Shown here piece by piece: positions 5,074-43,634 of a stretch of DNA of 44,824 bases. The first letter of the stretch is position 1; the number at the start of each line of letters is the position of its first letter. The translations under genes were made by a program, and so were the position numbers. Under the pieces are notes generated by a model that worked only from the letters and a program-made list of their open reading frames with translations, was not told the DNA's origin and did no database searches. This stretch comes from a virus. Lineage: Duplodnaviria; Heunggongvirae; Uroviricota; Caudoviricetes. The DNA is taken from positions 1 through 44,824 of IMG/VR virus record IMGVR_UViG_2778261573_000004; one strand, given 5' to 3'.

Positions 5074-5654
5074 GTCACCTGATCCTCTGTTTTTTGGCTG
5101 CGGATATTGTCATTGCCACTCTGGGCATTTTTAACCACATGATCATGGTCATTATGTGCATCCCGCAGCTCTTTCAGTGTTCGGGTATTGGTTTCACAGT
5201 TATCAACAATGTCACCCGTGCACCTCAGGATCGGGGTATTTGCAAGGATCCCCTGGCTGGCATTGATGGTCACGTTAGTGGCGTTATTGACCTCAACATT
5301 CTGGCCCTTTGCATCCAGGAAGATCCCCTTCTCCGTCAGGAGAATATTAAGGCCCCACTGGTTATACATGACCGTTTCGCCCGCTTTCAGGCCTGTATGA
5401 CGGAACCCCTGATGGTTGGACGCAATTACCACCGCGCTGGAACGATCACCGCCAATAAAAGCCAGAACCACGTCAGTCCCTGACGGCAGGCCGGATGAAA
5501 AGCCAAATTCTGCCATCCGCGGAGCGCTGGCCACCTCCAGCGGAGTCTGGTACTGGATAGACTGCACCACCCCACCATCTTTCATAGCCGTGATCCGGCC
5601 AATCCCCAGCATGCCGGCGATCCTGGTCGCTGCATGTTTAAATAGTTGCTTCAT
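5070..5654 (-). CDS. Baseplate assembly protein V / spike (Mu gp45-like)
   Basis: 194 aa with a Gly/Val-rich beta-rich core; position between the gpD-like and gp46-like genes. Confidence 0.7.
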   Translation of the reverse strand: MKQLFKHAATRIAGMLGIGRITAMKDGGVVQSIQYQTPLEVASAPRMAEFGFSSGLPSGTDVVLAFIGGDRSSAVVIASNHQGFRHTGLKAGETVMYNQWGLNILLTEKGIFLDAKGQNVEVNNATNVTINASQGILANTPILRCTGDIVDNCETNTRTLKELRDAHNDHDHVVKNAQSGNDNIRSQKTEDQVT

Positions 5655-8136: not shown

Positions 8137-8149
8137 CACGCCTCCGGAA

Positions 8150-28344: not shown

Positions 28345-28816
28345 GTTGCCAGTTTTCAATGAAGATAATGCGGGCAAAAAAAGCCTGCTCGGACGAACAG
28401 GCATGAAAAATAACAATACCGTCAAGGAGGTGGCGCCGGGTGCCTCCCGGTGGAACAGCCCCAGCCGACTAGTTCCGCGCAAACAAACCTGGACAAAAAA
28501 GTTTGACTGGTCGCCCCTCCGCATAGGGGGATTCACCACACTAAAAATTTAACATCTGATGAAACTCGTTTCAATGCTCTACGACGATGTGACAGGGGTA
28601 TTGATGCAATGCAAATAGACCTACTCTCGGAGCAAGGATAACAACTTTTCCGTACTCTCTTCTGTAAGTTCGAAGTGGATCAATTCTTCGCCATTCTTGA
28701 GAATGTAGAGTTCTTTACTCCCTTTATCATCAGTAGTGATATCAAGGGCATAAATATCAGGCTTGCATAGCGTAATGCCGCCTGTCGTAACTAGCGTCTT
28801 ATTAACGAGGTGACTC

Positions 28817-30448: not shown

Positions 30449-30729
30449 GCAGGCACCACCAAGCCACGACGGGCAATCTGAATAATGGTCAGGACGATGG
30501 CGCGATCCATTAACTGGCGGCGCTCGTCACGGCTAAGCCCCTTCCCGTTATCAATCTCTGAATGGCAGGTGACACAGATAGCGGCGGTGGCGCAGTCGTC
30601 TGTCTTCATGCCAATTCCCTTACCTTCATTGCGGTGTGCTACCTGTACGCCCCACGCTCCGCAAAGGACGCATTGCTCAATCTGGCCGACTGCGGCGAGC
30701 CACTTCTTGCTGCGGTAGGTTTTACTCAT
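30445..30729 (-). CDS. DUF1364-like Cys/His-rich protein (YbcO-like)
   Basis: Start at [10 protein letters not shown]; CVLCGAW...HR...[15 protein letters not shown] Cys/His cluster; precedes rusA as ybcO does in the DLP12 prophage (from memory). Confidence 0.55.
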
Positions 30730-31390
30730 GGTCACCACCTTGCACCTGAACCAGCGTGAGGTTTCCGCAAAACACCGCTCCTGTGTCGATGTACATCTGG
30801 TTGGCATACTTCAGGGGCTGGCGCGCAGGGGTGTGGCCGAAGATAAACAGATCAGCACCGGCTATCGGCGAGACAATGCTGCCCTGAGCGTCGCTAACCC
30901 GCTCACGATTCCAGATGACCATGTCTTTCGGGACCGGCTTGTCGAACGCATATTCGTTATGCGGGTAGTCAGCGTGGCAAATTACGATTTTCCGATCGGA
31001 GGTAACCAGCTCGATGATGAGTGGTAACTCAGCTGCCTTGTGAACCAGAGCCTTAGCCAGCACCTCTTTGTCATAGTCGAGATTGAAGAACCAACCGCCA
31101 CCGTTTACCAGCCAGTGATTGACGTTTCCATGCTCTGAAAGCCCATCAACCATCATCTGCTCATGGTTACCGCGCACTGCCCTGAACCACGGCATAGTAA
31201 TCAGATCCAGGCACTCGACGTTTTCCGCGCCGCGGTCAACAAGGTCACCAACCGAGATCAGCAAATCACGCGCAGGGTCGAACGAAACCTTTTCGAGCTC
31301 ATTCATCAGCAGCGTGTAGCACCCATGCAGATCGCCGACGACGAAGATATTGCGCCAGTCAGCGCCATTAATTCGTTGATACATGCTCAT
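30722..31390 (-). CDS. Ser/Thr protein phosphatase (lambda PPase / NinI-like metallophosphoesterase)
   Basis: Start at MSMYQRI; motifs GDLHG, GDLVDRG and GNHE are diagnostic of the PPP/calcineurin-like family. Confidence 0.85.
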
Positions 31391-31557
31391 GCTGATTTTC
31401 TCCTCGCTGCGAGACGCAGCCATTTCTGATCCACCAGGCGGGCGGTGTAGTCTTTCAGGGTCGGGATATCGGACGGCTTAACCGCGGGCTTAGGCTTGCG
31501 GCGCGCCGGAACGCGAAAGATTTCGTTTGTGATGACGCGGGAAAGTGGAGTTGACAT
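31387..31557 (-). CDS. ninE: NinE-like small protein (56 aa; below the ORF-track size cut-off)
   Basis: [36 protein letters not shown] resembles lambda NinE as I recall it; start overlaps the ninB stop (TGATG) and its stop overlaps the phosphatase start (ATGA). Confidence 0.55.
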
Positions 31558-32012
31558 CAGGCCTCCTGCTTATCGCGCAGCACCTGAAATTCGCTGCTTT
31601 GAGGGATTGTGAGCACCAGGCCAAACTGAGCGCACCAGCCTTCCACCTGGCACATGAAATGGTGCATGTCGCCAGTGTCCAGATCGGACGTGTGGCGGAG
31701 TTCTAATTCAATCGTCTTAATTCCGGTGACGAAATCGGTGTACTCAACCTCTTCATAACCCAGATAAGTTTTTTTGAGGTTTCGCTTTACCCATGCAGGC
31801 GTTGCGTCAGTGCGCCCAGACTTGATCAGGTAGTCGCTTATTTCCTTGTACCAAACGTGGCTCAGACTATTTTGTGAAAGGCTTCTCTTCTCGCGCCAGT
31901 CTTTGAGTTGGAGCCGGAAGCACTCACCGTTTTCGAGAAGTGGCTTCAGATGCTGAGTGATAGCACCAAGATTTCCACGGTGTAGCTTGATGCCGTCTTT
32001 GGAGATAATCAT
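31557..32012 (-). CDS. ninB: NinB (Orf-family recombination protein)
   Basis: Start at MIISKDGIKL (ATG 32012); NinB-like size and position in the nin region. Confidence 0.75.
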   Translation of the reverse strand: MIISKDGIKLHRGNLGAITQHLKPLLENGECFRLQLKDWREKRSLSQNSLSHVWYKEISDYLIKSGRTDATPAWVKRNLKKTYLGYEEVEYTDFVTGIKTIELELRHTSDLDTGDMHHFMCQVEGWCAQFGLVLTIPQSSEFQVLRDKQEA

Positions 32013-32380
32013 ACGGCCTCCTTGACGGAAACCGCAGAATGCAGAAAATCGCAGGTGCATGTCTGCATCTGTGACAAGGCGATGAGTTCAGATTGTGGTC
32101 GCATTTAAGTCCCCTTAAATGCGCAGAAGTCTTACCGTCGGGCGTTCAACTCCGACGACGGTTAAATTATGGCTGGTTGATTATGGAAAATCAACATAAG
32201 AGAAAGGCCTTCGAAGAGGCCATTGGTGTCTTGATGCTGGTTTATAAATCTCTACCCGCCGGGATGATTCACAAAATACATTTGCAATTAGTACTTCAGG
32301 GAAGGCTGGATTTGATCTAGCTTGTTAAACAATCCGTAGATTATGATATCGGGATAAAAAACAGAAGGGATGGCCTGGTT

Positions 32381-32818
32381 ATGAATAATGGGGTGTTTAC
32401 TACCGTCATTACTGGTGTTTCAGTGTTTGTGTTGGGTCAGATATTTGTAAAATCCATGCTTGATCCTTACATTTCATTCAAGGAACATTTGGGGATGGTT
32501 TCGGCCATTCTCCTGCGTGAGCAAAATAAAATCCTTAGCATCAATGCGAAAAGCGAAGTAATAAACGAAATCAAACAGGCGTCAGCTTTGCTGTTGTCAA
32601 AATCTAATGCCATACCCTTGTATGGAATGTTGGCTACTTTACGTCTCCTTCCTCGATACAAAGATGTCCTTAAGGCCTCGTGGAATCTGAATCTTATTGC
32701 GTCTATTTTAGAAGAAGGAAGAAACACCACCCCCAAAGAAACCTATACAACTATTTCTAATTCTCTCAATGCGGTAGGCAGTAAGTTAGGGGTGGTTGTT
32801 ACATACAGACCATCTTAG
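32381..32818 (+). CDS. Membrane-anchored protein of unknown function (AT-rich opposite-strand cargo gene)
   Basis: 145 aa; N-terminal TM helix (VFTTVITGVSVFVLGQIFV); region 32100-32820 is AT-rich relative to flanks; convergent with the DUF551-like gene. Confidence 0.55.
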   Translation: MNNGVFTTVITGVSVFVLGQIFVKSMLDPYISFKEHLGMVSAILLREQNKILSINAKSEVINEIKQASALLLSKSNAIPLYGMLATLRLLPRYKDVLKASWNLNLIASILEEGRNTTPKETYTTISNSLNAVGSKLGVVVTYRPS

Positions 32819-32819
32819 A

Positions 32820-33437
32820 TCAGCAAATAATATCTTCCTGCTGCGGCGCTGCCGGCAGCGGCATCCAGTGGGTTGGGCTCCATGATGCTCCTGGTATAAT
32901 CCAGCCATCTATATCTGCATCCGGATGCCCAGGGCAATTTGTTGCCCACTTCATTGCATAGCCGCCAGGAGCTGATTGCCATGGCGCAGCAACTATCACA
33001 CCTGTTGATGGGCTTGGCATCCGCTTACTGCAAGCCACCCAACCGTCTGTCAACTCATCACTATTACTTACAGGTTCGGCCTGAAGCATGGCGGCGCGAT
33101 AGGCGTTCCAGCCGACAGCTTTTCCGTGTTCAAACGCGCTGTCAAAGTCATCATCAATTTCCATCGCAGCGGGCACAGATACCGGCGCTGGCGGGGCGGT
33201 GTAAAGCGGCGTTACTTCTCGCAGCGGGTCGGCATAAGCATTGCCACTATCGAAGCTGACGTTGTTTTTTGCCCCGCCTCCTGACAGCAACCACGCCACC
33301 GGCTCCGCTTCGAGCGATGCCAGCGCTATACGCGCCATCTCTTTGACAACGTCACAGTTTTTATTTCCTTCGCAATCATCCATCAAAAGCCAATCGTCAT
33401 TGATTATTTCTTTAATCTTATCCCGTGAAAGTTCCAT
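32820..33437 (-). CDS. DUF551-like protein
   Basis: 205 aa; C-terminal GWVACSKRMP...WATN...THWMPLPAAP resembles DUF551 domains common in lambdoid nin regions (from memory). Confidence 0.55.
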   Translation of the reverse strand: MELSRDKIKEIINDDWLLMDDCEGNKNCDVVKEMARIALASLEAEPVAWLLSGGGAKNNVSFDSGNAYADPLREVTPLYTAPPAPVSVPAAMEIDDDFDSAFEHGKAVGWNAYRAAMLQAEPVSNSDELTDGWVACSKRMPSPSTGVIVAAPWQSAPGGYAMKWATNCPGHPDADIDGWIIPGASWSPTHWMPLPAAPQQEDIIC

Positions 33438-33637
33438 TAATTCACCGCCTTAGCTTTACGCTCTGCTTCACTAAAATCCCAGTCAACACGATGCGATATT
33501 TCAATTGCCGCCCTAACGGAATGCTCAATCATGATGTCGAGCTTTTGAAGTGTCATGGCCATATTTGGATTTCGAGCCAATATTTCTGCGCGAAGAATTT
33601 GCCAGTCATTGCATGTTTCAAGTAATGAATTAGCCAT
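33437..33637 (-). CDS. Small hypothetical protein
   Basis: Start at MANSLLETCNDW (ATG 33637) directly after the upstream stop; 66 aa. Confidence 0.35.
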   Translation of the reverse strand: MANSLLETCNDWQILRAEILARNPNMAMTLQKLDIMIEHSVRAAIEISHRVDWDFSEAERKAKAVN

Positions 33638-34025
33638 TATCTTTACCCCGCGCTCCATATGCAGATAAGCACTCTTCAAATCCAGCCTGATTATCCGTTT
33701 GACCAAAACTGAAGCCATGCTGAAGACCATGACGAAATGCGCTATCTTGCAATTTATCTGCGCTATCGAGCTTCGCTTCCAGTTCAGCGATTCGCTTCTC
33801 TGCGGCTTCCAGCGATGCCAGCAGCGCCAGCACGGTGACGGGGTTGGCTGCGGCGATGAATACTGAATCGACCTTGAGGCAATGTTGTGCTACCGCTTTC
33901 ACACCAACCTTCACCTCATATCCGCGCGCACCTTTGTGTGGCTTGTAAGGCTCCCAATTCCCCCATGATGCAGCGTTTGCCGCATTGGCTGCTTCACGTA
34001 ATGCGCGTTTGTCGATGTTGCTCAT
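33630..34025 (-). CDS. Ead/Ea22-like protein
   Basis: Start at MSNIDKRALREAANAA; coiled-coil segment; early-region accessory protein type (from memory). Confidence 0.45.
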   Translation of the reverse strand: MSNIDKRALREAANAANAASWGNWEPYKPHKGARGYEVKVGVKAVAQHCLKVDSVFIAAANPVTVLALLASLEAAEKRIAELEAKLDSADKLQDSAFRHGLQHGFSFGQTDNQAGFEECLSAYGARGKDNG

Positions 34026-34366
34026 ACCCCTACCCTCCCCCAAACCATCAATACCCTTCTCATCGCCGCGCTGTTGCGGCACTCCTGGCAGATCACGTTT
34101 GCCTCTGTACGCTGCACCAGCTTCGAATTTCCCTTCGGCATAGCCGGGATTGTTTCTGGTGCGTATTTCATGCCGTAATCGGTCAGCCGATAAAGCCGCT
34201 GTCCGTGCTTGCCTTCGAACTCGATCAGGCCGTCTGCCAGCAGCGTGCTCACCGTTCCGGATATCTTTTTGGTGTCCATGCCGATAAGCCCTGCCAGTTT
34301 GGCGTTGTTCAACCCTGGGTTGTTGCGCAGGGCTGCCAGCACCTGCTCACGGATTGTTATGTTCAT
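34022..34366 (-). CDS. Putative winged-helix DNA-binding protein
   Basis: Start at MNITIREQVLAALRNNPGLNNAKLAGLIGMDTKKISGTVSTLLADGLIEF; HTH-like; ATGA overlap with the downstream gene. Confidence 0.4.
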   Translation of the reverse strand: MNITIREQVLAALRNNPGLNNAKLAGLIGMDTKKISGTVSTLLADGLIEFEGKHGQRLYRLTDYGMKYAPETIPAMPKGNSKLVQRTEANVICQECRNSAAMRRVLMVWGRVGV

Positions 34367-34367
34367 G

Positions 34368-35057
34368 TCACACCATCCCGTTCGACTTGTTGCGGTTGTA
34401 CTTGGCCAGCAGCAGCTGGATCGGCGTCGGCCCTTGCTCGGCAGCTGGTGCGGCAATAGCCCGGCGTACCGGCGGCACTGGCTTACCCTCGGTGACGCGC
34501 CTTTCCCACATGTCCAGCAGATCGCCTGCCTCGCGTGCCAGTTCACCATGCGTTAACTGGCGCTCGGTGCTGCGGTGGCGCAATTCTACGCAAATGTGGT
34601 ACATGACCGGCTGCGACCATGGAAATTGCTCGCTGGAGATGAATTCGAACGAGCGGTTACGCCAGTCCCAGTATTCGGCGATCACCTGGTCAACGTTGAC
34701 GCCCAGCGCGCCGCCGCTCTGCTTGCACCAGGCGACGAACTGGCCCGGCGACGGCAGGAATGGGCGCTCCTGGCGGCGGGCAATGCGCATGCCGGCATCG
34801 ACCTGAGCCATGGTGTGGATCCCGTTCTCCTGAAACGCCAGCAGCCACTGACGGCGGAATTCGTTCAGGTCTTCCTGGGTGCGGAAGTTCGCCATGCTGG
34901 CCGGGAACGCGGCGCGCAGCTCGTTGAACAGCTTGTTGAATACCTGCGCCACCTGCTCGACCGGCGCGCACTCCTGGTACTGCTCTGGCAGGTTATGGGC
35001 CATGCGGCTCATCTGCTCGCGGTCGTGGTTACGCATCTGCTCTGCAAGAGATTTCAT
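34368..35057 (-). CDS. P: Replication protein P (helicase loader)
   Basis: MKSLAEQMRNHDREQMSRMAHNLPEQY and RRQERPFLPSPGQFVAWC closely match lambda P (MKNIAAQMVNFDREQMRRIANNMPEQY; RRQNRPFLPSPGQFVAWC) as I recall it. Confidence 0.9.
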   Translation of the reverse strand: MKSLAEQMRNHDREQMSRMAHNLPEQYQECAPVEQVAQVFNKLFNELRAAFPASMANFRTQEDLNEFRRQWLLAFQENGIHTMAQVDAGMRIARRQERPFLPSPGQFVAWCKQSGGALGVNVDQVIAEYWDWRNRSFEFISSEQFPWSQPVMYHICVELRHRSTERQLTHGELAREAGDLLDMWERRVTEGKPVPPVRRAIAAPAAEQGPTPIQLLLAKYNRNKSNGMV

Positions 35058-35962
35058 CGGATCACCCCATAGGCCCAGTCAGTGTTGTTGAAGTCCAGAT
35101 CTGGCTTGACAGCGCGCTGCTCACCTCCGGCGTTACGCTGCATTGTCAGCTTGTCCCACTGCTTACGCAGGCTTTCGGGACTCAGGATGTTGGTCTGCCA
35201 GAAGTGGTGTTTGCTAGCCCAGTCATACAGCGCGCAGATGTCCTGGTGCGACCGGTTGTCTATCTGGCGCATCAGGCGAACAGTGTTAGACCAGGAGGTC
35301 ATGTCCGGGGCTTTGCAGGTTGGGTTAATCAGCTTCACCCTGGAGGAAATCCACTTAGCTGTCTCGAGGTCTTCAGCAGAGCCCCACTTCGCACCGGATG
35401 GTGTGTAGACCGCAGCTTCAGGATGAGTTGATAAAAATTTCTTCAGACGTGCGTCAGAGGATTCGTCAGAATTCTCGGACGAAGATCTTTTAATACTGTT
35501 CTTGTTCTTGTATTGGGTGTCTACCGTTTTCGGGAAGGTTATTCCTGATTTCGGGAAGGATTTTCCCGTTTTCGGGAATTTTCTTCCCGTTTCCGGTTTG
35601 TCTAAAATCCATGCTGAAAGGTCAGTGTTTACACCGACGATTTTCATCATGCCCTGCTTCTGTGAAAAGATGATTTTGCGTTCTGCGAGAGACTTAAGCG
35701 CGTCCGATACATGCGTATCGCTCAGGCCCGTAAGCTCGGCAATAACCGTATTTGTCACGCGGTCCTGTTTCTTGTTCCAGCCGTAGGTAAGCCAGATCAC
35801 CGCCTCAAAACATTGCCATTCCCGGCCTGACAGTCTCAGGCGAGGCTTAAGCTGTTGGATCTCGTTAGCGACCTTGGTATACCCGTTCGACAGGTCGGCC
35901 ATACGACCTCCCGGTTGTTCGGTTTTATTTGGGAAATTGATTATTTCAGCGGTGTTTGACAT
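35054..35962 (-). CDS. O: Replication initiator protein O
   Basis: Start at MSNTAEIINF (lambda O begins MTNTAKILNF); TYGWNK motif; the gene contains the iteron array. Confidence 0.9.
   Translation of the reverse strand: MSNTAEIINFPNKTEQPGGRMADLSNGYTKVANEIQQLKPRLRLSGREWQCFEAVIWLTYGWNKKQDRVTNTVIAELTGLSDTHVSDALKSLAERKIIFSQKQGMMKIVGVNTDLSAWILDKPETGRKFPKTGKSFPKSGITFPKTVDTQYKNKNSIKRSSSENSDESSDARLKKFLSTHPEAAVYTPSGAKWGSAEDLETAKWISSRVKLINPTCKAPDMTSWSNTVRLMRQIDNRSHQDICALYDWASKHHFWQTNILSPESLRKQWDKLTMQRNAGGEQRAVKPDLDFNNTDWAYGVIR
35524..35602. repeat. ori iterons (four direct repeats of about 21 bp, core TTTCGGGAA) inside the O gene, with adjacent AT-rich segment 35481-35520
   Basis: CCGTTTTCGGGAAGGTTATTCC / TGATTTCGGGAAGGATTTTCC / CGTTTTCGGGAATTTTCTTCC / CGTTTCCGGTTTGTC; encodes the repeated FPK(T/S)G linker of O; same arrangement as ori-lambda. 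Confidence 0.75.
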
Positions 35963-36047
35963 ACTTACTCCCGTTACTTGCCGTAACACAGTGTGATAAG
36001 GGCCTTTGAAGTTACCGCTTCAAGGGCTTTTTCTTTTCTTGTGCCTC

Positions 36048-36593
36048 TCATATAACCCCCAGCATCGATGTAACCATCGTCATCAGCGGTCCTACCTGCT
36101 CCGGCATGAGGCGGAACAGCGACGCTATACCCTCGCTTACCTCTTTGAGCTTCTGATGCTCTGGAGCGTCCAGCAGCACGGCCTGTTTAGCCTCGGCACA
36201 CTCTTTCATCGCAGAGGCGATCAGCGACATCGTGTCGTTCTGCTGCGCCAGACGGTTTCGGTACTCCAGCGGCAGGACCGACATGATTGCCGGGGCCAGC
36301 TGGCGAATGTTGTTGGCGGCGTATTCGGTATCGCCATCAATCCATCGAAACACTTTCTGCATCTGGCGGTGCGAGTCAGTCGGGATATCCAGACCGGTTC
36401 CGCCGGACGCCCGCCACTCTTCCACGATCAGCGCGGCGACAAATTCACGGCTTCGGCAATCAGCTGCCCAGGCGCGAACAGCAGCGCGGATCCCATCGAT
36501 GTTTAACGCCGCGGAATCAGGCTCCCGGCGATTCTGGTAAATCATCGCCGTTGGCGAAAATTTGTTACCTTGTTGATACGCAAGTGAATGCAT
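36048..36593 (-). CDS. Regulatory protein in the CII position (possibly YdaT-like)
   Basis: 181 aa immediately downstream of the Cro-like gene and upstream of O; family assignment is tentative. Confidence 0.35.
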   Translation of the reverse strand: MHSLAYQQGNKFSPTAMIYQNRREPDSAALNIDGIRAAVRAWAADCRSREFVAALIVEEWRASGGTGLDIPTDSHRQMQKVFRWIDGDTEYAANNIRQLAPAIMSVLPLEYRNRLAQQNDTMSLIASAMKECAEAKQAVLLDAPEHQKLKEVSEGIASLFRLMPEQVGPLMTMVTSMLGVI

Positions 36594-36610
36594 TGCTTTC
36601 CCTTTCGTGG

Positions 36611-36844
36611 TTAGGCCGCAGTATCACGCGGCGATGCGAATACCAGGCTTTCTTTTAGGACCGGAGCCTGGCGGTGAAAATTCTTCGTGCCTTTCTCGAT
36701 AGCAGATGCCATTTCTGGAGATGCCCGGCGATTTCCGTAGGCGATCTGGTCCAGGTAACCTGGCGTCGTGTTAGCCAACTTTGCGAGCTGCGCCCATTCG
36801 TCGGTAGTGGCGGCCTTGCGCCAGCGGTGTAGTTCAGTGCTCAT
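36611..36844 (-). CDS. cro: Cro-like HTH transcriptional regulator
   Basis: 77 aa, HTH-like segment (WAQLAKLANTTPGYLDQIAYGNRRAS); divergent from the CI gene across the operator region. Confidence 0.6.
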   Translation of the reverse strand: MSTELHRWRKAATTDEWAQLAKLANTTPGYLDQIAYGNRRASPEMASAIEKGTKNFHRQAPVLKESLVFASPRDTAA

Positions 36845-36876
36845 TGGTGTCTCCGGGTGAGTCGTTTGATTTGGAG

Positions 36877-36942
36877 TTTAGCGTTATGCTAAATACTACG
36901 CAAGCATCATTTAGCAATTTGCACATTTATCATTTTGCTAAA
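36877..36942. promoter_or_regulatory. OR-like operator cluster between cro and cI
   Basis: Perfect palindrome TTTAGCGTTATGCTAAA at 36877-36893 and near-copy TTTATCATTTTGCTAAA at 36926-36942, plus half-site TTTAGCAATTTGCA between them. Confidence 0.55.
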
Positions 36943-36960
36943 AGCAGTAACAATGCAGGT

Positions 36961-37638
36961 ATGGAAAATAAAGAAATCAGAAAAGCCAACCTGGAAGCGC
37001 TGTACGAGAAGCGTCAGCACGAGTCTGGAATGACCAAAGCGCAGTTTGCCGAGCTCATCGAGACAAGTCCGGCTGCGCTTAGCCAGCTACTGGGACCAAA
37101 CCCTCATCGCAATATCGGCGATAAGATGGCTCGCAAAATTGAAACTGCGCTTGATCTGCCTTTTGGCTGGATGGATGTTTTACACGCCAGTGAAGAACCT
37201 TCGAACGTTGCATTTCGAGGACTGAACGAGACAAAAGGAAGTTATCCTGTAATCAGCTGGGTAAGCGCGGGGCAATGGATGGAAGCTGTAGAACCTTATC
37301 ACCGAAGAGCGATAGATCGCTGGTATGACACGACTGTTGACTGCTCAGAAGATTCATTCTGGCTGGACGTTAAAGGGGATTCTATGACCTCCCCGGCTGG
37401 ACTGAGCATACCCGAGGGAGCAGCGATACTTGTTGATCCTGAAGTCGAGCCGCGCAACGGAAAGCTGGTTGTCGCGAAGCTAGAAGGCGATAACGAAGCG
37501 ACCTTTAAGAAGCTTGTAATCGATGCCGGCAGACGCTTCCTAAAGCCCCTTAACCCCGCATATCCAATGCTAGAAATTAATGGAAACTGCAAAATCATCG
37601 GCGTTGTGGTTGATGCCAAAATACTAAACATCCCATAA
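36961..37638 (+). CDS. cI: CI-type prophage repressor (HTH plus S24 LexA-like peptidase domain)
   Basis: Start at MENKEIRKANLEAL; N-terminal HTH; C-terminal VKGDSM (Ser nucleophile) and VVAKLEG (Lys) of S24 autopeptidases. Confidence 0.9.
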   Translation: MENKEIRKANLEALYEKRQHESGMTKAQFAELIETSPAALSQLLGPNPHRNIGDKMARKIETALDLPFGWMDVLHASEEPSNVAFRGLNETKGSYPVISWVSAGQWMEAVEPYHRRAIDRWYDTTVDCSEDSFWLDVKGDSMTSPAGLSIPEGAAILVDPEVEPRNGKLVVAKLEGDNEATFKKLVIDAGRRFLKPLNPAYPMLEINGNCKIIGVVVDAKILNIP

Positions 37639-37654
37639 CCTCACGCAAAACCCC

Positions 37655-37683
37655 TCAAGCCCGCCATCGCGCGGGCTTTTTTA
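37655..37683 (+). terminator. Rho-independent terminator after cI
   Basis: AGCCCGCCATCGCGCGGGCT followed by TTTTTTA. Confidence 0.65.
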
Positions 37684-37754
37684 CGTCCCGAATTCCTTCG
37701 CTGTAAATTTTTAATCGCTTATTAATCAATACGCTAAATAAAACCATTCAACAA

Positions 37755-37796
37755 TTTAGCATTTTGCTATTGCGCATAATTTAGCATCACGCTAAA
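37755..37796. promoter_or_regulatory. OL-like operator cluster downstream of cI
   Basis: Perfect palindrome TTTAGCATCACGCTAAA at 37780-37796 and near-copy TTTAGCATTTTGCTAT at 37755-37770; same consensus as the OR sites. Confidence 0.5.
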
Positions 37797-38214
37797 TTTA
37801 CCCCATCGAAACGAAACATCGACAGCTGAGCGAAGTTAGCCAGCGGCGGACAGCAAGTCGCCTGCTTTTTAACAACATGCAGATTTACAGCGTCAATGAC
37901 CTGTTAAGACCCCTACACGTAAACGTGCTGTATCACTGGGTGCGATCCGGTCGGTGAGAGAGTATCCCCGCGCGAGAGCGAGAACGGCGTGAGAACGGGC
38001 AACACTGGCAGGGAGTTGGCGCTGACCAATACAGGGAATGTTATGGGATGTGGTGAAGGGTTCATGGACGGGAATATGTCGCACGTAAAGCGGCGAGGCC
38101 CGAGGAGCTATTGCCGAAGATAAGTAGGCCGAATCGGGTCGAAATGGGTCTCCCACCTACCACATCGCCAAAGCATTTCTCCCGCATCAGCGGGTAACGA
38201 CAGAGGGTAAGGGG

Positions 38215-38511
38215 ATGATCGACGACATCAAGCGCATCGACTCAATGATAAATGCGCTTCGCAATATGAAACAGGACATCAAGCGTCAGCAGAAACTAAG
38301 TGAAATAAACAGTTTAGACCTGTCGCCGAAGCAAGCTCAAAAGCGCAATGCCGATGCTGACTGGATTGCGATGGAACAGATTAAGCGTCGGCATGAGCTG
38401 CACGCTCTGTCTGTTGAGCTTGGGTTCGCTGAGCGCCGGGAAAGTTATGCTCCATTTGAATTAACTGACGGGTGGCACCGATTCGACCACAAGCCGCGCG
38501 AACCTCAATAG
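38215..38511 (+). CDS. First early-left ORF, basic protein of unknown function (N-like position)
   Basis: 98 aa; RBS GGGTAAGGGG before ATG 38215; lies after a 400-nt untranslated leader from the OL region. Confidence 0.45.
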   Translation: MIDDIKRIDSMINALRNMKQDIKRQQKLSEINSLDLSPKQAQKRNADADWIAMEQIKRRHELHALSVELGFAERRESYAPFELTDGWHRFDHKPREPQ

Positions 38512-38667
38512 CCGCCTAACCAGCGGCTTTTTCATACCTGGAGTCATTTACGAGTGGCTCAAGTTATGACAACCGGCGGCCATCCACCGCCCATTGAAAC
38601 ACTGAATAAATGCGTTGAAGTCTTGTATTAACCGTTCCGTTCGCCGCGATAAGGCCAAGAGGAAATC

Positions 38668-38796
38668 ATGGTAAACCAGCAGCAGATCAGAGAGGCCCAA
38701 CGGCTCGCGTCGTTCGCGGTGCTCCATCGCAATGCTCCGGCGTGGGAAGAAGCAAAACGCCTTTACGCCGTCGCCATCGGGAGGACTCTTCACTGA
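38668..38796 (+). CDS. Small ORF (42 aa), translationally coupled to the next gene
   Basis: RBS AAGAGGAAA before ATG 38668; stop overlaps the next ATG (TGATG). Confidence 0.3.
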   Translation: MVNQQQIREAQRLASFAVLHRNAPAWEEAKRLYAVAIGRTLH

Positions 38797-38993
38797 TGGA
38801 AACTTTATTCGCACTCGTCCTGACCGTGGCAATGACCAACGGTGATTATCAGGATGTCATTCTCGGCGTTTACGACAGCCAGCAGGAATGCAGCCTGGCA
38901 GCTACAGAGCAGAAAGTGTCAGCTGAGTGCTGGCCGGTAGAAAGCATCATCCGCAACGGCGAGTTCCCGGCGAAATCCATCGCGCAGCAGTAA
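38796..38993 (+). CDS. Small protein with hydrophobic N-terminus (65 aa)
   Basis: METLFALVLTVAMTNGDYQ...; start inferred from coupling with the upstream ORF. Confidence 0.35.
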   Translation: METLFALVLTVAMTNGDYQDVILGVYDSQQECSLAATEQKVSAECWPVESIIRNGEFPAKSIAQQ

Positions 38994-39063
38994 CCACCCT
39001 ATTCAACCGATCGGCCTGGCATTACGCGGGCGGGATCTGCACATCCAAATTTCAGGAGAAACC

Positions 39064-40035
39064 ATGAGCGAAGTAACGGACTTAACTGTCATCGAAATCA
39101 AGCCGGAACAGGCCCCAGTGCTTTACGTAGCGGGCGGCCTTGACGCGTACCTTGAGCAAATCCGCCAGGCTGTAAACGAAGTGCCGGACCTGTCCACGAA
39201 GAAAGGCCGTGACCGTGTTGCCTCTCTGGCAGCGCAGGTGTCCCGCAGCAAGACGGCAATCGAAAAGCCGGGCCGTGAGTACCTGAAGCGCCTGAAAGAG
39301 GCTGTGCGTCCGGCTGAGGCCGAAATTAAGCGATTCGTTGATGCCTGCGACGAGCTGCGCGATGCGACCCGCCGCCCACTCACCGAATGGGAAGCCGAGC
39401 AGGAACGCATTAAGGCTGAAGAAGCCATGAACGCGATGCACGCCGAAGCGCTGGAGATGAACATCAGGTTCGATCAGGAGCTGGCTGCCAAGTTCGAAGC
39501 GGACCACGAAATGGCTCTACTGATGAACAAGGATTTTGACCGTGACCGCGAAGAGCAGCGCCGTCTGGCGGAACAGGCTCAGCGTGAACGTGATGAGCGG
39601 CTGAAACAGGAAGCGGCAGAACAAGCCCGCCGCGATGCCGAAGCGAAGCACAAAGCGGAGATTGAAGCCGCAGCGCGCCGTGAAGCCGAAGAGAAAGCCC
39701 GCGCTGAACTGGCGGAGCGCCAGCGCGTCGAAGCGGAACAGCGTGCAGCTCGCGAGAAGCAGGAAGCGGAAGCCCGGGCGGAACGCGAAAAAGCCGCGGC
39801 GGTTGAAGCCGAGCGCCTGAAGGCCAAACAGGCCGAAGATGCCCGCCTGGCCGAAGAGAAGCGCCTCGCCGATGAGCAGGCAAAGCGTGAAGCTGACGTT
39901 AAGCACCGCAAGACGGTCGGCACCAACATCGTTAACGCGCTCACCAGCCAAACCAGCTTAACCCGCGAGCAGGCTATCGAAGTGCTTACCGCTCTGAAAG
40001 ATGACCTGATCCCCTGCGCGAAAATTCATTACTGA
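39064..40035 (+). CDS. Charged coiled-coil protein with Glu/Arg/Ala-rich low-complexity core
   Basis: 323 aa; RBS GGAGAA before ATG 39064; the central region 39480-39900 is strongly biased (EAERLKAKQAEDARLAEEKR), producing open frames in all six frames. Confidence 0.55.
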   Translation: MSEVTDLTVIEIKPEQAPVLYVAGGLDAYLEQIRQAVNEVPDLSTKKGRDRVASLAAQVSRSKTAIEKPGREYLKRLKEAVRPAEAEIKRFVDACDELRDATRRPLTEWEAEQERIKAEEAMNAMHAEALEMNIRFDQELAAKFEADHEMALLMNKDFDRDREEQRRLAEQAQRERDERLKQEAAEQARRDAEAKHKAEIEAAARREAEEKARAELAERQRVEAEQRAAREKQEAEARAEREKAAAVEAERLKAKQAEDARLAEEKRLADEQAKREADVKHRKTVGTNIVNALTSQTSLTREQAIEVLTALKDDLIPCAKIHY

Positions 40036-40042
40036 GGCAACC

Positions 40043-40327
40043 ATGAACGCATACCTCACTTACGACCGCATCGAAGATCGGCGCTGGGCTGAGCAGCAGA
40101 TCACCGACGAGAAAGAGAAGTGGATCGACGACCGGGCGCAGAAAATCATCGACATGATGCCAAAAGAGCCATCCGGCCTCTTCCACTTCTCGGTCCCGAT
40201 TGACTCCAGCCCATACGAAGGGCTTCGCAGCGATAAAGCTGGCGAGGCCTACAACGATTTCATTTCGGCAGTTGCTTACGCCCAGGCGGAATACGACTGG
40301 GATCACCGTACCGGCTGCCCGTTTTAA
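40043..40327 (+). CDS. Hypothetical early protein
   Basis: 94 aa, tightly packed in the early-left operon. Confidence 0.45.
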   Translation: MNAYLTYDRIEDRRWAEQQITDEKEKWIDDRAQKIIDMMPKEPSGLFHFSVPIDSSPYEGLRSDKAGEAYNDFISAVAYAQAEYDWDHRTGCPF

Positions 40328-40338
40328 GGAGAGAGTTA

Positions 40339-40572
40339 ATGGCCCGCAGAAATTTACTCCACAAATCGAAATTAGCCGACTTTAAGGAGTGGCTCTCGAT
40401 GAACGGAATTCAGTGGAGAGATGGGAAAGGTAGTTACCAGGTGATCCAGGTGAATACGGGATGCGGCTGGACACCGATTTATGACAGCAGCAAAGAGCGA
40501 CGCGAGCATTTCACTATTCAGGATGCTCTCAGGCCTTTGGTAAACAGATTCATCAGAGAGGCTGCAAAATGA
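40339..40572 (+). CDS. Hypothetical early protein
   Basis: 77 aa, RBS AAGGAGAGAG before the ATG; 4-nt overlap with the next gene. Confidence 0.45.
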   Translation: MARRNLLHKSKLADFKEWLSMNGIQWRDGKGSYQVIQVNTGCGWTPIYDSSKERREHFTIQDALRPLVNRFIREAAK

Positions 40573-41072
40573 CAGATTCAAAAACACATTACCGCAAGGC
40601 ATTTGACTCCCCTTACCTCAGCAGCGCCGACATCGTTGAGCCAACGGTGCTGACGATCGCCCGGGCAACGTTAGAAAACGACAAAACAAAAAAATCCAAA
40701 GACGTTTTTAACACTGCTTATTTTGAAGAGCGCGAGCTGCGCCCTGGCGAAAAGCTTAAGCCGATGATTCTGAATGCCACGAACAGCAAGATGCTGAAAA
40801 GCATTACCGGATCCCCCTTCCTTGAGGATTGGGTAGGCGTGAAGGTCACTGTTTACGTCGATAAAAATGTCCGGTTCGGAAAGGAATCGGTTGAAGGTCT
40901 CCGCTTAAGCCCGGCGCGCGTCACAAAGCCGGTGCTTTCGCCGGAGAAAACGCAGGCTTGGAATAACGCTAAGGCCGCCTTCAAGCGCGATGGCAACCTT
41001 GATGCAGTGCTGGCGAGAATGGACATTTCTCCAGAGCATCGCCGCCAGCTTGAGCAGGAGTGTTCATCATGA
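40569..41072 (+). CDS. Hypothetical protein, possible partner of the exonuclease (recombination module)
   Basis: 167 aa immediately upstream of and overlapping the YqaJ-type exonuclease; function inferred from position only. Confidence 0.4.
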   Translation: MTDSKTHYRKAFDSPYLSSADIVEPTVLTIARATLENDKTKKSKDVFNTAYFEERELRPGEKLKPMILNATNSKMLKSITGSPFLEDWVGVKVTVYVDKNVRFGKESVEGLRLSPARVTKPVLSPEKTQAWNNAKAAFKRDGNLDAVLARMDISPEHRRQLEQECSS

Positions 41073-41692
41073 TCTGGCACGACGTCGAGCAAAACGGTGA
41101 AGAGTGGGACGCTCTTCGCCTGGGTAAGGCCACCGCTTCAAACTTCGGCCTGATCATGGCTAACGATGGGAAGGCTTTTGGCGAACCAGCCAAGCGTTAT
41201 GCCCTTCAATTGGCTCTTGAGCAGATTAAGGGGTGCAAGTCTGAATTTGGCTTTTCAAACGAGCACATGGAGCGCGGGCACGAACAGGAGCCAATTGCCC
41301 GCATGCTGTACGAAGAGATGAACTTCGTCGACGTGGATAACGGTGGGTTCTTTGATCACGAAACCTACGGTGACAGCCCAGACGGACTCGTTGGCCAGGA
41401 CGGGCTCGTTGAGATTAAGTCGGTCATTGCCGCCACTCACTACTCCACCCTAACCCGCGGCTCCTTCGATCCGGCATACAGATGGCAACTGGTCGGTCAC
41501 CTTGATTGCTCCGGCAGGGATTGGGTGGACTTCATCAGCTACTGCTCAGACTTCCCGGACGGTAAGCAGCTCATCGTTTATCGCCTTACAGCTGCTGAAT
41601 GTGAAACAGAAATAGCCCGGCTTCGCGCACGCAGAAATGATTTCCTCGAACTTGTTGCGGACACTAAGCGCCGCATACTGGAGCTCGAATGA
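41060..41692 (+). CDS. YqaJ-family viral recombinase exonuclease (lambda Exo-like, PD-(D/E)xK)
   Basis: 210 aa; WDALRLGKATASNFGLIM and GDSPDGLVGQDGLVEIKS match YqaJ/lambda-exonuclease active-site motifs. Confidence 0.8.
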   Translation: MFIMIWHDVEQNGEEWDALRLGKATASNFGLIMANDGKAFGEPAKRYALQLALEQIKGCKSEFGFSNEHMERGHEQEPIARMLYEEMNFVDVDNGGFFDHETYGDSPDGLVGQDGLVEIKSVIAATHYSTLTRGSFDPAYRWQLVGHLDCSGRDWVDFISYCSDFPDGKQLIVYRLTAAECETEIARLRARRNDFLELVADTKRRILELE

Positions 41693-42117
41693 AACGCACC
41701 CCCTTCTATCGCAGGCCCGGGCGAACCGGACAATTCTCCGGCCTCCGTGAGCGCGTTATCTGGATGATTCAGACGCGCGGCCGCCCGGTCACCGGTAGTG
41801 AAATCGCTGAGAAGTTTGGCGTAACGCTCATTGAGTTTAACCGGGTCGCCAACGGGATCACCCGCGGCTCCGGACAGATAGCTCAGATCGTTGAGTCGGA
41901 AAAATGGCTCAACGAGGACGGAATCTGCGACCGGACTTTCGACCTGGTCACGAAGCCGAAGGTTGTGACGCCGCAGGGCAAATCGCGCCTGTTCACCCGG
42001 CGCGCCATTGAGCAATCGCAGGAAGGTAGACGGCAGGAGTGCATAGCCCGTGCCGCCCGCCGTAGCCGCCTGATTGCTCAGGGCCTCTACATCGACGAAA
42101 TGGAGTCCATCCTATGA
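41689..42117 (+). CDS. Hypothetical protein
   Basis: 142 aa; overlapping start/stop with neighbours. Confidence 0.45.
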   Translation: MKRTPFYRRPGRTGQFSGLRERVIWMIQTRGRPVTGSEIAEKFGVTLIEFNRVANGITRGSGQIAQIVESEKWLNEDGICDRTFDLVTKPKVVTPQGKSRLFTRRAIEQSQEGRRQECIARAARRSRLIAQGLYIDEMESIL

Positions 42118-42272
42118 CTCACGCTCACGACGACATCAGGGTTGGCGCGGTGCGCCTTCCCTGGCTCAAAGAGAAAAACGGATGGTTGCTGCCGTGGGGT
42201 GAAGTCGTTACCAACCCACTGAAGGCGCAACGACTGGCTGAAGAACTTAACGAAAAGCAGGTGGCAGCATGA
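42114..42272 (+). CDS. Small ORF (52 aa; below the ORF-track size cut-off)
   Basis: ATG 42114 overlaps the upstream stop; its stop overlaps the Dam ATG (ATGA). Confidence 0.3.
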   Translation: MTHAHDDIRVGAVRLPWLKEKNGWLLPWGEVVTNPLKAQRLAEELNEKQVAA

Positions 42273-43153
42273 GATACGGCTCTGTTTGCAGTGGAGCTGC
42301 GGCGATGCCCATAGAAGAACCGGCGCTGCGCAGCTGGCAGCGCCCGTTCCTTAAATGGGCTGGCGGCAAATATTCGCTGCTGCCGGAACTGGATCGTTTG
42401 ATCCCCGCAGGTAAACGCCTTATTGAGCCTTTTGTGGGTGGCGGCTCGGTGTTCCTTAACTCAGACAAGCACGAACGCTTTCTTCTGGCTGACGTCAACG
42501 CTGACCTGATTAACCTGTATCAGATGCTGGCGGTGGTCCCCGACTCGGTGATCTATGAGGCAATGAAGGCATTCAGGCATCTGAATGATGCCGAAAACTA
42601 CACGGTAATTCGTGAAGCATTCAACGCGCAGCGGCTGGATGCGGTCGAGCGCGCAGCAGCGTTCCTTTACCTCAACCGGCACTGCTTCAACGGGCTGATC
42701 CGTTATAACCTGGACGGTTTTTTTAACGTCGGCTTTGGGAAATATAAAGCGCAATATTTCCCGGAAGAAGAGATCAGGGCATTTAAGCGGAAGGCTCACG
42801 CATGCGTATTCATGAATGCAGGCTTCAGGCGCACGCTCGCGCTGGCAGGTGATGGTGACGTCGTTTACTGCGATCCGCCTTATGAGCCGCTGCCCGGCAC
42901 CGCTGGTTTCACTAACTATGCGGCTGGTGGGTTCTCATGGGATAGCCAGGTAGAACTTACGGAAAGCTGTGTGGCAGCCCACCAGCGGGGGGCAAAAGTG
43001 GTGATCAGCAATTCTACCGCTCCGCGCGTAATTGAACTTTACGAACAGCACGGCTTCACGCTGCACCGCGTCAGTGCTCGCCGGGCTATATCCAGCAAAG
43101 GCAGTACCCGCGAAACAGCGAGTGATGTCGTAGCCACTTTGGGAGTGCAGTGA
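42269..43153 (+). CDS. dam: DNA adenine methyltransferase (Dam/D12 class N6-adenine MTase), orphan
   Basis: FVGGGSVF (AdoMet-binding FxGxG) and DPPY catalytic motif in the correct order; no adjacent restriction endonuclease. Confidence 0.9.
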   Translation: MRYGSVCSGAAAMPIEEPALRSWQRPFLKWAGGKYSLLPELDRLIPAGKRLIEPFVGGGSVFLNSDKHERFLLADVNADLINLYQMLAVVPDSVIYEAMKAFRHLNDAENYTVIREAFNAQRLDAVERAAAFLYLNRHCFNGLIRYNLDGFFNVGFGKYKAQYFPEEEIRAFKRKAHACVFMNAGFRRTLALAGDGDVVYCDPPYEPLPGTAGFTNYAAGGFSWDSQVELTESCVAAHQRGAKVVISNSTAPRVIELYEQHGFTLHRVSARRAISSKGSTRETASDVVATLGVQ

Positions 43154-43395
43154 TGATGAAGCTGATTAATCGCAGTAAGCAATCACCTATTGGTCGCCGC
43201 GCTTGCGATGTTGCGCTGGCGGCTCACTTGCAAACATATGGCGACTATGGGCGAAGCAAGATGAAAGAGACTTATACGGTGAAGGTTGAAGGCGTGAAAG
43301 TCTGGGTGGAGGTGGTGAACCGAAAGGCGAGCTACGTGGCCACAGCGATGACCGGCATGCGCCGTCTCCGCTCCCTGCCCGGGCAGGTTGGTTGA
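43150..43395 (+). CDS. Hypothetical protein
   Basis: 81 aa; overlaps the Dam stop. Confidence 0.4.
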   Translation: MMMKLINRSKQSPIGRRACDVALAAHLQTYGDYGRSKMKETYTVKVEGVKVWVEVVNRKASYVATAMTGMRRLRSLPGQVG

Positions 43396-43436
43396 AAAAG
43401 ATTTTGAATGGCCCGAACGGGCAACTGGAGAGAGCT

Positions 43437-43634
43437 ATGGATGATATTTTGGTAACGTCAGACCTGACCAGTCGCTACAAAATTTCACGCAAAACCCTTT
43501 GGTCATGGCAAAGTGCAGACACAATGCCTCGGGGCTTCGTATGCCCGTTCCCACCCCCTGACTGGCCCGGCAACCCTAACCGCTGGCGCTCTGAGTCAAT
43601 CAAAGAGTGGGAGGATAAAAAGAAGATAAATTAA
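43437..43634 (+). CDS. xis: Excisionase / AlpA-family DNA-binding protein
   Basis: Start at [10 protein letters not shown] with RBS GGAGAG; [15 protein letters not shown]...[13 protein letters not shown] resembles AlpA/Xis HTH proteins; convergent with and overlapping the integrase stop. Confidence 0.6.

What the first reader, a model, noticed from the sequence alone, without database searches (positions are those of the whole stretch)
35481..35602. ori-lambda-like origin inside the O gene
Seen in sequence: four about 21-bp direct repeats with core TTTCGGGAA followed (in the O coding direction) by an AT-rich 40-bp segment; the repeats encode the repeated FPK(T/S)G linker of O. Established knowledge: lambda O binds iterons within its own gene. 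This pinpoints the replication origin of this prophage.
Basis: partly seen in the sequence, partly recalled or inferred. Interest (0 to 1): 0.35.

Follow-up and report, generated by a model that had tools for sequence, protein, structure and literature searches.

The report
Known phage phi80 replication origin

Summary
On the minus strand, inside a lambda-O-like gene (35054-35962), there are four 16-bp dyad-symmetric sites, consensus TTCCCGAAAACGGGAA. They are spaced exactly 21 bp apart, at 35584-35599, 35563-35578, 35542-35557 and 35521-35536. A 37-bp stretch of 66% A+T follows (35484-35520), then a palindrome shared with lambda (35453-35480).

The O gene is 100% identical to phage phi80 gene 15. 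GenBank JX871397 already annotates four gp15-binding sites at these positions.

New support found here:
- Across 37 diverged relatives, synonymous third-codon positions are nearly frozen over the origin (0.10 bits of entropy, against 0.94 in the N-terminal domain).
- The sites go with the O N-terminal domain. A Klebsiella phage that shares only the C-terminal half has unrelated repeats.
- A Morganella relative changed both arms of its sites symmetrically.

A lambda-P-like gene follows O. The most likely mechanism is the lambda one: O dimers on the iterons, melting of the AT-rich tract, and DnaB loading through P.

Verdict: interpretation supported, already known, low interest. Origin firing in this particular mosaic prophage is inferred, not shown.

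The parts
35054..35962 (-). Initiator gene: lambda O homologue, equal to phi80 gene 15 (302 aa). The N-terminal winged-helix-type DNA-binding domain is about aa 1-120, the origin-encoded linker about aa 121-168, and the C-terminal domain shared with lambda follows.
   Evidence: Pfam Phage_rep_O 6.3e-25 over aa 29-127. 39% identity to lambda O over the full length. 100% DNA identity to phi80 X13065 and JX871397, where the ATG start maps to 35962. The mechanical ORF list extends to a GTG at 35989.
35584..35599 (-). Iteron 1, AAACCGGAAACGGGAA. The left arm is degenerate (AAACCG) and the right arm is perfect.
   Evidence: It overlaps the gp15 protein_bind feature of JX871397, which maps to 35584-35598. 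The same sequence or AAACCGAAAACGGGAA is found in most of the 37 relatives.
35563..35578 (-). Iteron 2, TTCCCGAAAACGGGAA, a perfect dyad (TTCCCG-AAAA-CGGGAA).
   Evidence: The gp15 protein_bind feature maps to 35563-35578.
35542..35557 (-). Iteron 3, TTCCCGAAATCAGGAA.
   Evidence: The gp15 protein_bind feature maps to 35542-35557.
35521..35536 (-). Iteron 4, TTCCCGAAAACGGTAG. The right arm is degenerate (CGGTAG). This iteron is next to the AT-rich tract.
   Evidence: The gp15 protein_bind feature maps to 35522-35536.
35484..35520 (-). AT-rich tract with an A-rich O-sense strand; the presumed site of initial strand opening.
   Evidence: 66% A+T and 53% A on the O-sense strand. Least stable 30-bp duplex within the O-P genes and top 0.18% of the window. 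It aligns with the lambda AT-rich region, 78% A+T. Synonymous sites are frozen across relatives.
35453..35480 (-). Conserved origin palindrome with an EcoRI site, GTCCGAGAATTC-TGAC-GAATCCTCTGAC (10 of 12 arm positions complementary). It is nearly identical in lambda.
   Evidence: Alignment to lambda. Arm count. Window 35453-35483 (query positions 400-430) matches lambda-type phages at 100% identity (H19-H25). It is also conserved in a Klebsiella phage with unrelated iterons. Synonymous sites are largely frozen up to about codon 168.
34368..35057 (-). Lambda-P homologue, equal to phi80 gene 14 (229 aa); the presumed DnaB helicase loader recruited by the O C-terminal domain. It overlaps the O stop codon by 4 bp.
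   Evidence: Pfam Phage_lambda_P 1.9e-49. Annotated as 'replication initiation protein 14; similar to lambda P' in JX871397.

Best explanation
Window 35453-35599 (minus strand) is the phi80-type lambdoid replication origin. It lies in the linker-coding part of the initiator gene O (phi80 gene 15).

Proposed mechanism, by homology with ori-lambda:
- After repressor loss, rightward transcription from pR expresses O and P and passes through the origin.
- Dimers of the O N-terminal winged-helix domain bind the four dyad sites TTCCCG-AAAA-CGGGAA. The sites are spaced exactly two helical turns apart, so all dimers sit on one face of the DNA and form an O-some.
- The strain from this complex opens the adjacent AT-rich tract.
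- The O C-terminal domain recruits the P-DnaB complex, host chaperones release P, and DnaB starts bidirectional theta replication.

Shown here: the anatomy, identity to the annotated phi80 origin, DNA-level purifying selection confined to the origin, and change of the site sequence together with the N-terminal domain. Inferred: physical binding, melting, helicase loading, and firing in this particular prophage.
For: (1) The O gene is 100% identical to phi80, and 34368-36050 matches at 1679 of 1683 bases. JX871397 annotates four gp15 protein-binding sites that map to 35522-35598.

(2) The parts lie in the same order as in the annotated ori-lambda: four iterons, an AT-rich tract, then a palindrome, all inside O. 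The iteron cores are visibly homologous: phi80 TTCCCGAAAACGGGAA against lambda TCCCTCAAAACGAGGGA.

(3) O and P are clear family members, and O is 39% identical to lambda O over its full length.

(4) In 37 non-redundant relatives (under 97% nucleotide identity; N-domain 78-100% amino-acid identity), synonymous third-position entropy is 0.94 bits in codons 1-119 but 0.10 in codons 120-150. At four-fold-degenerate codons the values are 1.10 and 0.07. Entropy stays low to about codon 168, which corresponds to window 35459-35602.

(5) In all relatives the four sites keep exact 21-bp phasing. The 16-bp sites, including the central AAAA, are conserved, while the 5-bp spacers vary.

(6) Specificity follows the N-terminal domain. 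Klebsiella phage ST16-OXA48phi5.2 shares the O C-terminal half (80% amino-acid identity from residue 152), the AT-rich tract and the palindrome. Its N-terminal domain is unrelated and its repeats are unrelated (CATGTGCGG type, 12-bp period).

(7) A Morganella relative changed both arms symmetrically, to TTACCG...CGGTAA, across all four sites (in iterons 2 and 3 on both arms), as expected for recognition by a dimer.

(8) The AT-rich tract is the least stable duplex within the O-P genes.
Against: No experiment on this element is available. O binding, melting and initiation are inferred from lambda and from the phi80 annotation.

I could not read the primary phi80 origin papers, so I cannot say whether gp15 binding was ever footprinted or was assigned by homology.

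The AT-rich tract is only 66% A+T, against 78% in lambda.

The outer arms of iterons 1 and 4 are degenerate.

An alternative pairing of half-sites (CGGGAA-N5-TTCCCG, three sites) is also dyad-symmetric, so sequence alone does not fix which arms one dimer contacts.
Confidence: 0.93

Rival explanations
1. The 21-bp periodicity is only a by-product of a 7-residue repeat (FPKTGKx) in a flexible protein linker. The DNA itself would have no cis-acting role.
For: The repeats are in frame and encode KPETGRK/FPKTGKS/FPKSGIT/FPKTVDT.
Against: Four-fold-degenerate third positions inside the repeats are almost invariant (0.07 bits, against 1.10 in the N-terminal domain), which protein selection cannot explain. 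Each unit is a DNA palindrome, a property with no meaning for a peptide. The encoded amino acids vary (K/E, T/S, F/L) while the DNA arms stay fixed, and the Morganella lineage changed both arms symmetrically. The homologous sites in lambda are annotated as O-binding iterons.
Confidence: 0.02
2. The sites do bind O, but in this mosaic or possibly defective prophage the origin is not used. Replication would start elsewhere or not at all, and the sites would act only in O titration or incompatibility.
For: The window is a mosaic: the phi80 early region is joined to an unrelated contractile-tail late region. Prophage viability is untested. Lambda iterons carried on plasmids are reported to inhibit lambda-type replication (PMC3349717).
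Against: O, P, the CI-like repressor, the cro-like gene and the integrase are all intact open reading frames. The O-P-ori module is essentially identical to that of viable phi80, HK225 and mEp237. None of the genes examined in the window looked like another initiator, but the window was not screened systematically.
Confidence: 0.05

Closest known systems
ori of phage phi80 (gene 15/gene 14 replication module; GenBank X13065, JX871397/NC_021190); the same module occurs in HK225 and mEp237
   Same: The DNA is identical: 936 of 936 bases over the O region and 1679 of 1683 over 34368-36050. The four annotated gp15 binding sites fall on the same bases.
   Different: Nothing differs in the origin itself. 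The surrounding genome differs: window 1-25 kb has no phi80 match and encodes a contractile tail. This is therefore the phi80 replication module in another mosaic prophage. The same 181-bp origin segment is present in 126 of 5426 complete E. coli genomes.
ori-lambda (four 18-bp iterons ITN1-4, a 38-40-bp AT-rich region and a palindrome, inside gene O)
   Same: Same position inside a homologous O gene, four dyad iterons, and the same order of AT-rich tract and near-identical palindrome. A P gene lies downstream. The iteron cores are homologous (TCCC..AAAAC..GGGA).
   Different: The arm sequence differs (TTCCCG/CGGGAA against TCCCTC/GAGGGA), so specificity should differ. Phi80 spacing is a strict 21 bp, against 20, 24 and 23 bp in lambda. 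The AT-rich tract is 66% A+T against 78%. The O proteins are 39% identical overall; the N-terminal half is visibly the less conserved part of the alignment.
Origins of Stx phages 933W and P27
   Same: Lambdoid O-gene-embedded origin with iterons and an AT-rich tract (PMC7466680).
   Different: Those origins have six lambda-type iterons, and their O proteins are close to lambda O. This one has four phi80-type iterons. One relative, L089, has five through a 21-bp duplication.
Iteron-type plasmid origins (for example the F plasmid with RepE)
   Same: Directly repeated initiator-binding sites.
   Different: Not examined here beyond paper titles and abstracts. From general knowledge, those origins are not embedded in the initiator's coding sequence, their Rep proteins are unrelated to O, and helicase loading uses host DnaA/DnaC rather than a P protein.

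Membership tests
Lambdoid O/P-type replication origin (ori-lambda family) | The origin lies inside the initiator (O) gene, in the segment between the N-terminal DNA-binding domain and the C-terminal domain. | tested here: met
   The sites occupy codons 122-147 of a 302-codon O homologue. Pfam Phage_rep_O covers aa 29-127. The position matches lambda in the alignment.
Lambdoid O/P-type replication origin (ori-lambda family) | An array of about four dyad-symmetric initiator-binding iterons. | tested here: met
   Four 16-bp dyad sites at exact 21-bp spacing. They are annotated as gp15 binding sites in phi80.
Lambdoid O/P-type replication origin (ori-lambda family) | An AT-rich, easily melted tract directly downstream of the last iteron in the direction of O transcription. 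| tested here: met
   35484-35520 is 66% A+T and is the least stable duplex in the O-P genes. It is weaker than lambda's (78%).
Lambdoid O/P-type replication origin (ori-lambda family) | A conserved palindrome to the right of the AT-rich tract. | tested here: met
   35453-35480 is nearly identical to lambda.
Lambdoid O/P-type replication origin (ori-lambda family) | Initiator homologous to lambda O, with a lambda-P-type helicase loader encoded immediately downstream. | tested here: met
   Phage_rep_O 6e-25, Phage_lambda_P 2e-49, and 39% identity to lambda O.
Lambdoid O/P-type replication origin (ori-lambda family) | Iteron sequence specific to, and evolving together with, the O N-terminal domain. 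| tested here: met
   The 37 non-redundant relatives with the phi80-type N-terminal domain that were examined keep phi80-type sites. A Klebsiella phage with the same C-terminal domain but an unrelated N-terminal domain has unrelated repeats.
Lambdoid O/P-type replication origin (ori-lambda family) | The DNA sequence is under selection beyond its coding role (cis-acting element). | tested here: met
   Third-position entropy is 0.10 bits over the origin against 0.94 in the N-terminal domain.
Lambdoid O/P-type replication origin (ori-lambda family) | Physical binding of the initiator to the iterons, and O-dependent unwinding of the AT-rich tract. | not testable with these tools
   This needs EMSA or footprinting and a permanganate or P1 nuclease assay with gp15.
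Lambdoid O/P-type replication origin (ori-lambda family) | Replication actually initiates at this site in vivo. | not testable with these tools
   This needs marker-frequency analysis, 2D gels or a plasmid replication assay.
ori-phi80 specifically | Sequence identity with the phi80 gene 15 origin segment. | tested here: met
   100% identity over 936 bp to X13065 and JX871397.

The most novel reading that the evidence does not exclude
The phi80-type origin may not work as 'four independent dimer sites' in the way the lambda origin does. Its eight half-sites alternate in orientation at a strict 10-11-bp spacing, so neighbouring arms of adjacent iterons also form a dyad (CGGGAA-N5-TTCCCG). gp15 could therefore assemble as a continuous, register-ambiguous filament on one face of the DNA. 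The two degenerate outer arms, conserved in most relatives, would mark the ends of the filament. The Morganella variant would then be a natural switch of origin specificity: arms TTACCG/CGGTAA, together with S81N and D87N in the putative recognition helix.
Probability: 0.1. Interest if true: 0.3.

Novelty: already known. Interest (0 to 1): 0.08.

Why it matters
It matters little for discovery. Lambdoid origins inside the O gene are textbook material, and this exact sequence is already annotated in the phi80 GenBank record. From my own memory, not verified here, the phi80 origin was sequenced in 1979 (Grosschedl & Hobom, Nature 277:621; Moore et al., CSH Symp 43:155). Both papers are cited by title in PMC3349717.

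The practical value is for annotation. It places the origin of this mosaic prophage at about 35.45-35.60 kb and shows that the phi80 replication module travels between otherwise unrelated phage genomes.

The comparative data collected here are a clean illustration of a cis element hidden in coding sequence, and could serve as a positive control for scans of this kind. They include the frozen synonymous sites, the modular exchange of the N-terminal domain together with its iterons, a five-iteron variant and a symmetric arm variant.

Tried and rejected
(1) Alternative register. My first reading of the repeats was three palindromes, CGGGAA-N5-TTCCCG. I rejected it as the primary unit for three reasons. 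Across relatives the AAAA centre is conserved while the 5-bp segments vary. The TTCCCG-AAAA-CGGGAA register aligns with lambda's TCCCTC-AAAA-CGAGGGA. It is also the register annotated in phi80. Sequence alone does not formally exclude the other register.

(2) 'The window is phage phi80 itself.' Rejected: window 1-25 kb has no phi80 match, and only about 30.7-44.8 kb matches, at about 96% identity.

(3) Literature. The phi80/Lula genome paper and Grosschedl & Hobom 1979 are not held in the library. Text searches found no open paper describing the phi80 iterons. The claim of prior description therefore rests on the GenBank annotation, the cited titles and my own memory.

(4) Solved structures. 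There is no solved structure of an O-type N-terminal domain. The only hit is weak (E = 0.009) and is to a metal-dependent transcriptional regulator, over residues 52-108. From general knowledge that family has a winged-helix DNA-binding domain, which fits an HTH-type domain here but proves nothing.

(5) Other iteron-like sites in the window. Only 31924-31939 was found, with 3 mismatches, which is at chance level.

(6) Rfam found nothing in or beside the origin. The oop-like M3 RNA annotated in phi80 is not recovered at the gathering threshold.

(7) I did not use the large protein-database searches or structure prediction. The answer did not depend on them.

Full report
**1. What is in the sequence**

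The finding lies inside a minus-strand ORF. The mechanical ORF list gives 35054-35989; the start annotated in phi80 maps to 35962. A second minus-strand ORF, 34368-35057, follows and overlaps its stop codon.

Read on the coding strand, the segment holds four 16-bp sites at an exact 21-bp period:
- Iteron 1: AAACCGGAAACGGGAA (35599..35584)
- Iteron 2: TTCCCGAAAACGGGAA (35578..35563)
- Iteron 3: TTCCCGAAATCAGGAA (35557..35542)
- Iteron 4: TTCCCGAAAACGGTAG (35536..35521)

Each site is a dyad, TTCCCG-AAAA-CGGGAA. The 5-bp spacers between them are GAAAA, AATCC and TAACC.

In the fourth repeat it matches only 5 of 9 bases, although that repeat's other arm is perfect. The 16-mer with up to 3 mismatches gives 4 hits against 0.38 expected from shuffles; three are these sites. 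Iteron 1 is too degenerate for that search to find.

In the O direction a 37-bp tract follows, ACACCCAATACAAGAACAAGAACAGTATTAAAAGATC (35520..35484). Measured over 35484-35521, it is 66% A+T and 53% A on the sense strand, against 48% A+T for the window. It is the least stable 30-bp duplex within the two replication genes and ranks in the top 0.18% of the whole window.

Next comes GTCCGAGAATTC-TGAC-GAATCCTCTGAC (35480..35453), a palindrome with 10 of 12 arm positions complementary.

The repeats translate to KPETGRK-FPKTGKS-FPKSGIT-FPKTVDT.

**2. What the genes are**

- The ORF matches Pfam Phage_rep_O (6e-25, aa 29-127). The downstream ORF matches Phage_lambda_P (2e-49).
- The O-like protein aligns with lambda O end to end at 39% identity.
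- Upstream on the same strand lie a cro-like HTH gene and a 181-aa ORF. A divergent LexA/S24-type repressor sits opposite. This is the lambdoid immunity and replication layout.

**3. Identity with a known phage**

The O region is 100% identical (936 of 936 bases) to phage phi80 (X13065, JX871397/NC_021190). It is 99.7-99.8% identical to HK225 and mEp237. Window 34368-36050 matches phi80 at 1679 of 1683 positions without gaps.

JX871397 annotates gene 15 ('similar to lambda O'), gene 14 ('similar to lambda P') and four protein_bind features labelled gp15. With the offset of 33553 these map to window 35522-35536, 35542-35557, 35563-35578 and 35584-35598. Those are the four sites above. The element is therefore already annotated in a public record.

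From memory, the phi80 origin was sequenced and compared with lambda in 1979 (Grosschedl & Hobom; Moore et al.). Those titles appear in the reference list of PMC3349717. I could not open the papers themselves.

**4. Comparison with ori-lambda**

The lambda record annotates four 18-bp iterons at 39034-39118, with start-to-start spacing of 20, 24 and 23 bp, all inside gene O. An AT-rich tract and a palindrome follow them.

The alignment places the phi80-type sites on the lambda iterons (TCCCTCAAAACGAGGGA) and the two AT-rich tracts on each other. It shows a nearly identical palindrome (TTCGTC[C/A]GAGAATTCTG[A/G]CGAATCCTCTGAC).

The differences are the arm sequence, the strict 21-bp phasing, and a less AT-rich tract (66% against 78%).

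**5. New tests of the cis-acting role**

I collected 27 loci from one-genome-per-species bacterial assemblies, spanning Enterobacter, Citrobacter, Klebsiella, Pectobacterium, Xenorhabdus, Morganella and others, plus 80 viral contigs that encode the phi80-type N-terminal domain. After removing sequences at 97% nucleotide identity or above, 37 remained, with N-domain amino-acid identity of 78-100%.

- (a) At codons whose amino acid is conserved, third-position entropy averages 0.94 bits in codons 1-119 but 0.10 in codons 120-150. For four-fold-degenerate codons the values are 1.10 and 0.07. Near-invariance continues through the AT-rich tract and the palindrome to about codon 168. The DNA-level constraint therefore covers about 35459-35602, which is the origin and little else.
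- (b) Every relative keeps four sites in exact 21-bp register. Arms and the central AAAA are conserved, and spacers vary.
- (c) The Morganella morganii locus carries TTACCG...CGGTAA arms across all four sites, on both arms in iterons 2 and 3. This symmetric C-to-A/G-to-T change is expected for a dimer recognising a dyad. It comes with lineage-specific substitutions S81N and D87N in the putative recognition helix, and Q101R. This is a single lineage, so the link is anecdotal.
- (d) Klebsiella phage ST16-OXA48phi5.2 has an O protein 80% identical from residue 152 onward but with an unrelated N-terminal domain. It keeps the AT-rich tract and the palindrome, but in place of the phi80 sites it has CATGTGCGG-type repeats with a 12-bp period. 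Phages PHB10 and Meifeng, which share the N-terminal half, keep phi80-type sites.

The sites therefore follow the DNA-binding domain, and the exchange point lies at the AT-rich tract and palindrome. From prior knowledge, this is the classical modular design of O.

**6. Mechanism**

The mechanism is that of lambda, by homology:
- O dimers bind the iterons.
- The nucleoprotein complex destabilises the AT-rich tract.
- The O C-terminal domain brings in P-DnaB.
- Host chaperones release the helicase.

[quoted passage not shown] It also reports that two iterons plus the AT-rich tract suffice for unwinding in lambda. For the element in this window these steps are inferred, not shown.

**7. Rival readings**

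- A purely protein-coding repeat is excluded by the frozen synonymous sites and by the DNA dyad symmetry.
- Non-use of the origin in this mosaic prophage cannot be excluded without experiments. It is unlikely, because all module genes are intact and essentially identical to those of viable phages.
- The alternative half-site pairing (CGGGAA-N5-TTCCCG) is disfavoured by the conservation pattern and by homology with lambda, but it is not formally excluded.

**8. Context**

The window is not phi80. Coordinates 1-25 kb do not match it. That part encodes a large terminase, portal, major head protein, tail sheath, tape-measure and baseplate proteins, which indicates a contractile tail. Roughly 30.7-44.8 kb is about 96% identical to the phi80 early region, through to the integrase.

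The 181-bp origin segment occurs in 126 of 5426 complete E. coli genomes, including DH5alpha.

**9. Verdict**

The element is already known and annotated as the phi80 origin, so interest is low.
- the dyad nature and correct register of the sites;
- the conserved palindrome at 35453-35480 as part of the origin;
- that the host element is a mosaic and not phi80.

Noticed in passing
window 1-25000 versus 30700-44824: The prophage is a mosaic. About 30.7-44.8 kb is about 96% identical to the phi80 early region (integrase, recombination, immunity and replication genes). In contrast, 1-25 kb has no phi80 match and encodes a contractile-tail virion: sheath 11205-12707, tape measure 8480-10408, baseplate 3492-8139, large terminase 19108-21237.
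   Followed up: partly
window 28372-28568 (-): Rfam hit to the gammaproteobacterial sRNA STnc100 (84.5 bits against a gathering score of 47; E = 9e-17). It was the only Rfam family found in the window.
   Followed up: no
window 36048-36593 (-): A 181-aa ORF lies between the cro-like gene and O. The phi80 record annotates a 180-aa 'CII decision making protein' at this position. The ORF carries a Pfam YdaT_toxin domain (8.8e-28) and so does not resemble lambda's small CII. The older record X13065 calls only a 132-aa cII.
   Followed up: no
window 35973-36032 (+): The phi80 record annotates 'M3 RNA, homolog of lambda oop RNA' here, antisense and just upstream of the O start codon. Rfam did not detect it at the gathering threshold. 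The mechanical ORF list starts O at GTG 35989, but the annotated ATG is at 35962.
   Followed up: partly
L089 (IMGVR_UViG_3300013612_000006), match at 1201-1701: A natural five-iteron variant. Iteron 3 plus its spacer is duplicated exactly (21 bp), which adds one FPKSGIT unit to O.
   Followed up: partly
L031 (Morganella morganii H1r, NZ_AYMP01000027.1), match at 1004-1486: The iteron arms read TTACCG/CGGTAA instead of TTCCCG/CGGGAA across all four sites, a symmetric change. O carries lineage-specific substitutions S81N and D87N in the putative recognition helix, and Q101R. This may be a natural switch of origin specificity.
   Followed up: partly
L032 (Kluyvera genomosp. 3 YDC799, CP022114.1), match at 1201-1676: A 1-bp deletion inside iteron 2 shifts the O reading frame, with stop codons soon after. 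This looks like a decaying prophage in which the origin and the initiator were damaged by the same event.
   Followed up: no
L006 (Klebsiella phage ST16-OXA48phi5.2) 1250-1405: This O gene shares only its C-terminal half, the AT-rich tract and the palindrome with the window. Its presumed iterons form two clusters of CATGTGCGG-type repeats with a 12-bp period, encoding an 'AAHE/AAHD'-like peptide repeat.
   Followed up: partly
L004 (phage PHB10); E. coli W619 (hit H55): The phi80-type N-terminal domain and iterons are also found joined to other C-terminal O segments (for example ...SRNSDESRNQKTQKFLSRHPEAA...). In these cases the downstream partner is not annotated as P: 'replication protein' in PHB10 and 'ATP-binding protein' in E. 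coli W619. The origin-binding module therefore seems to combine with different partner genes.
   Followed up: no
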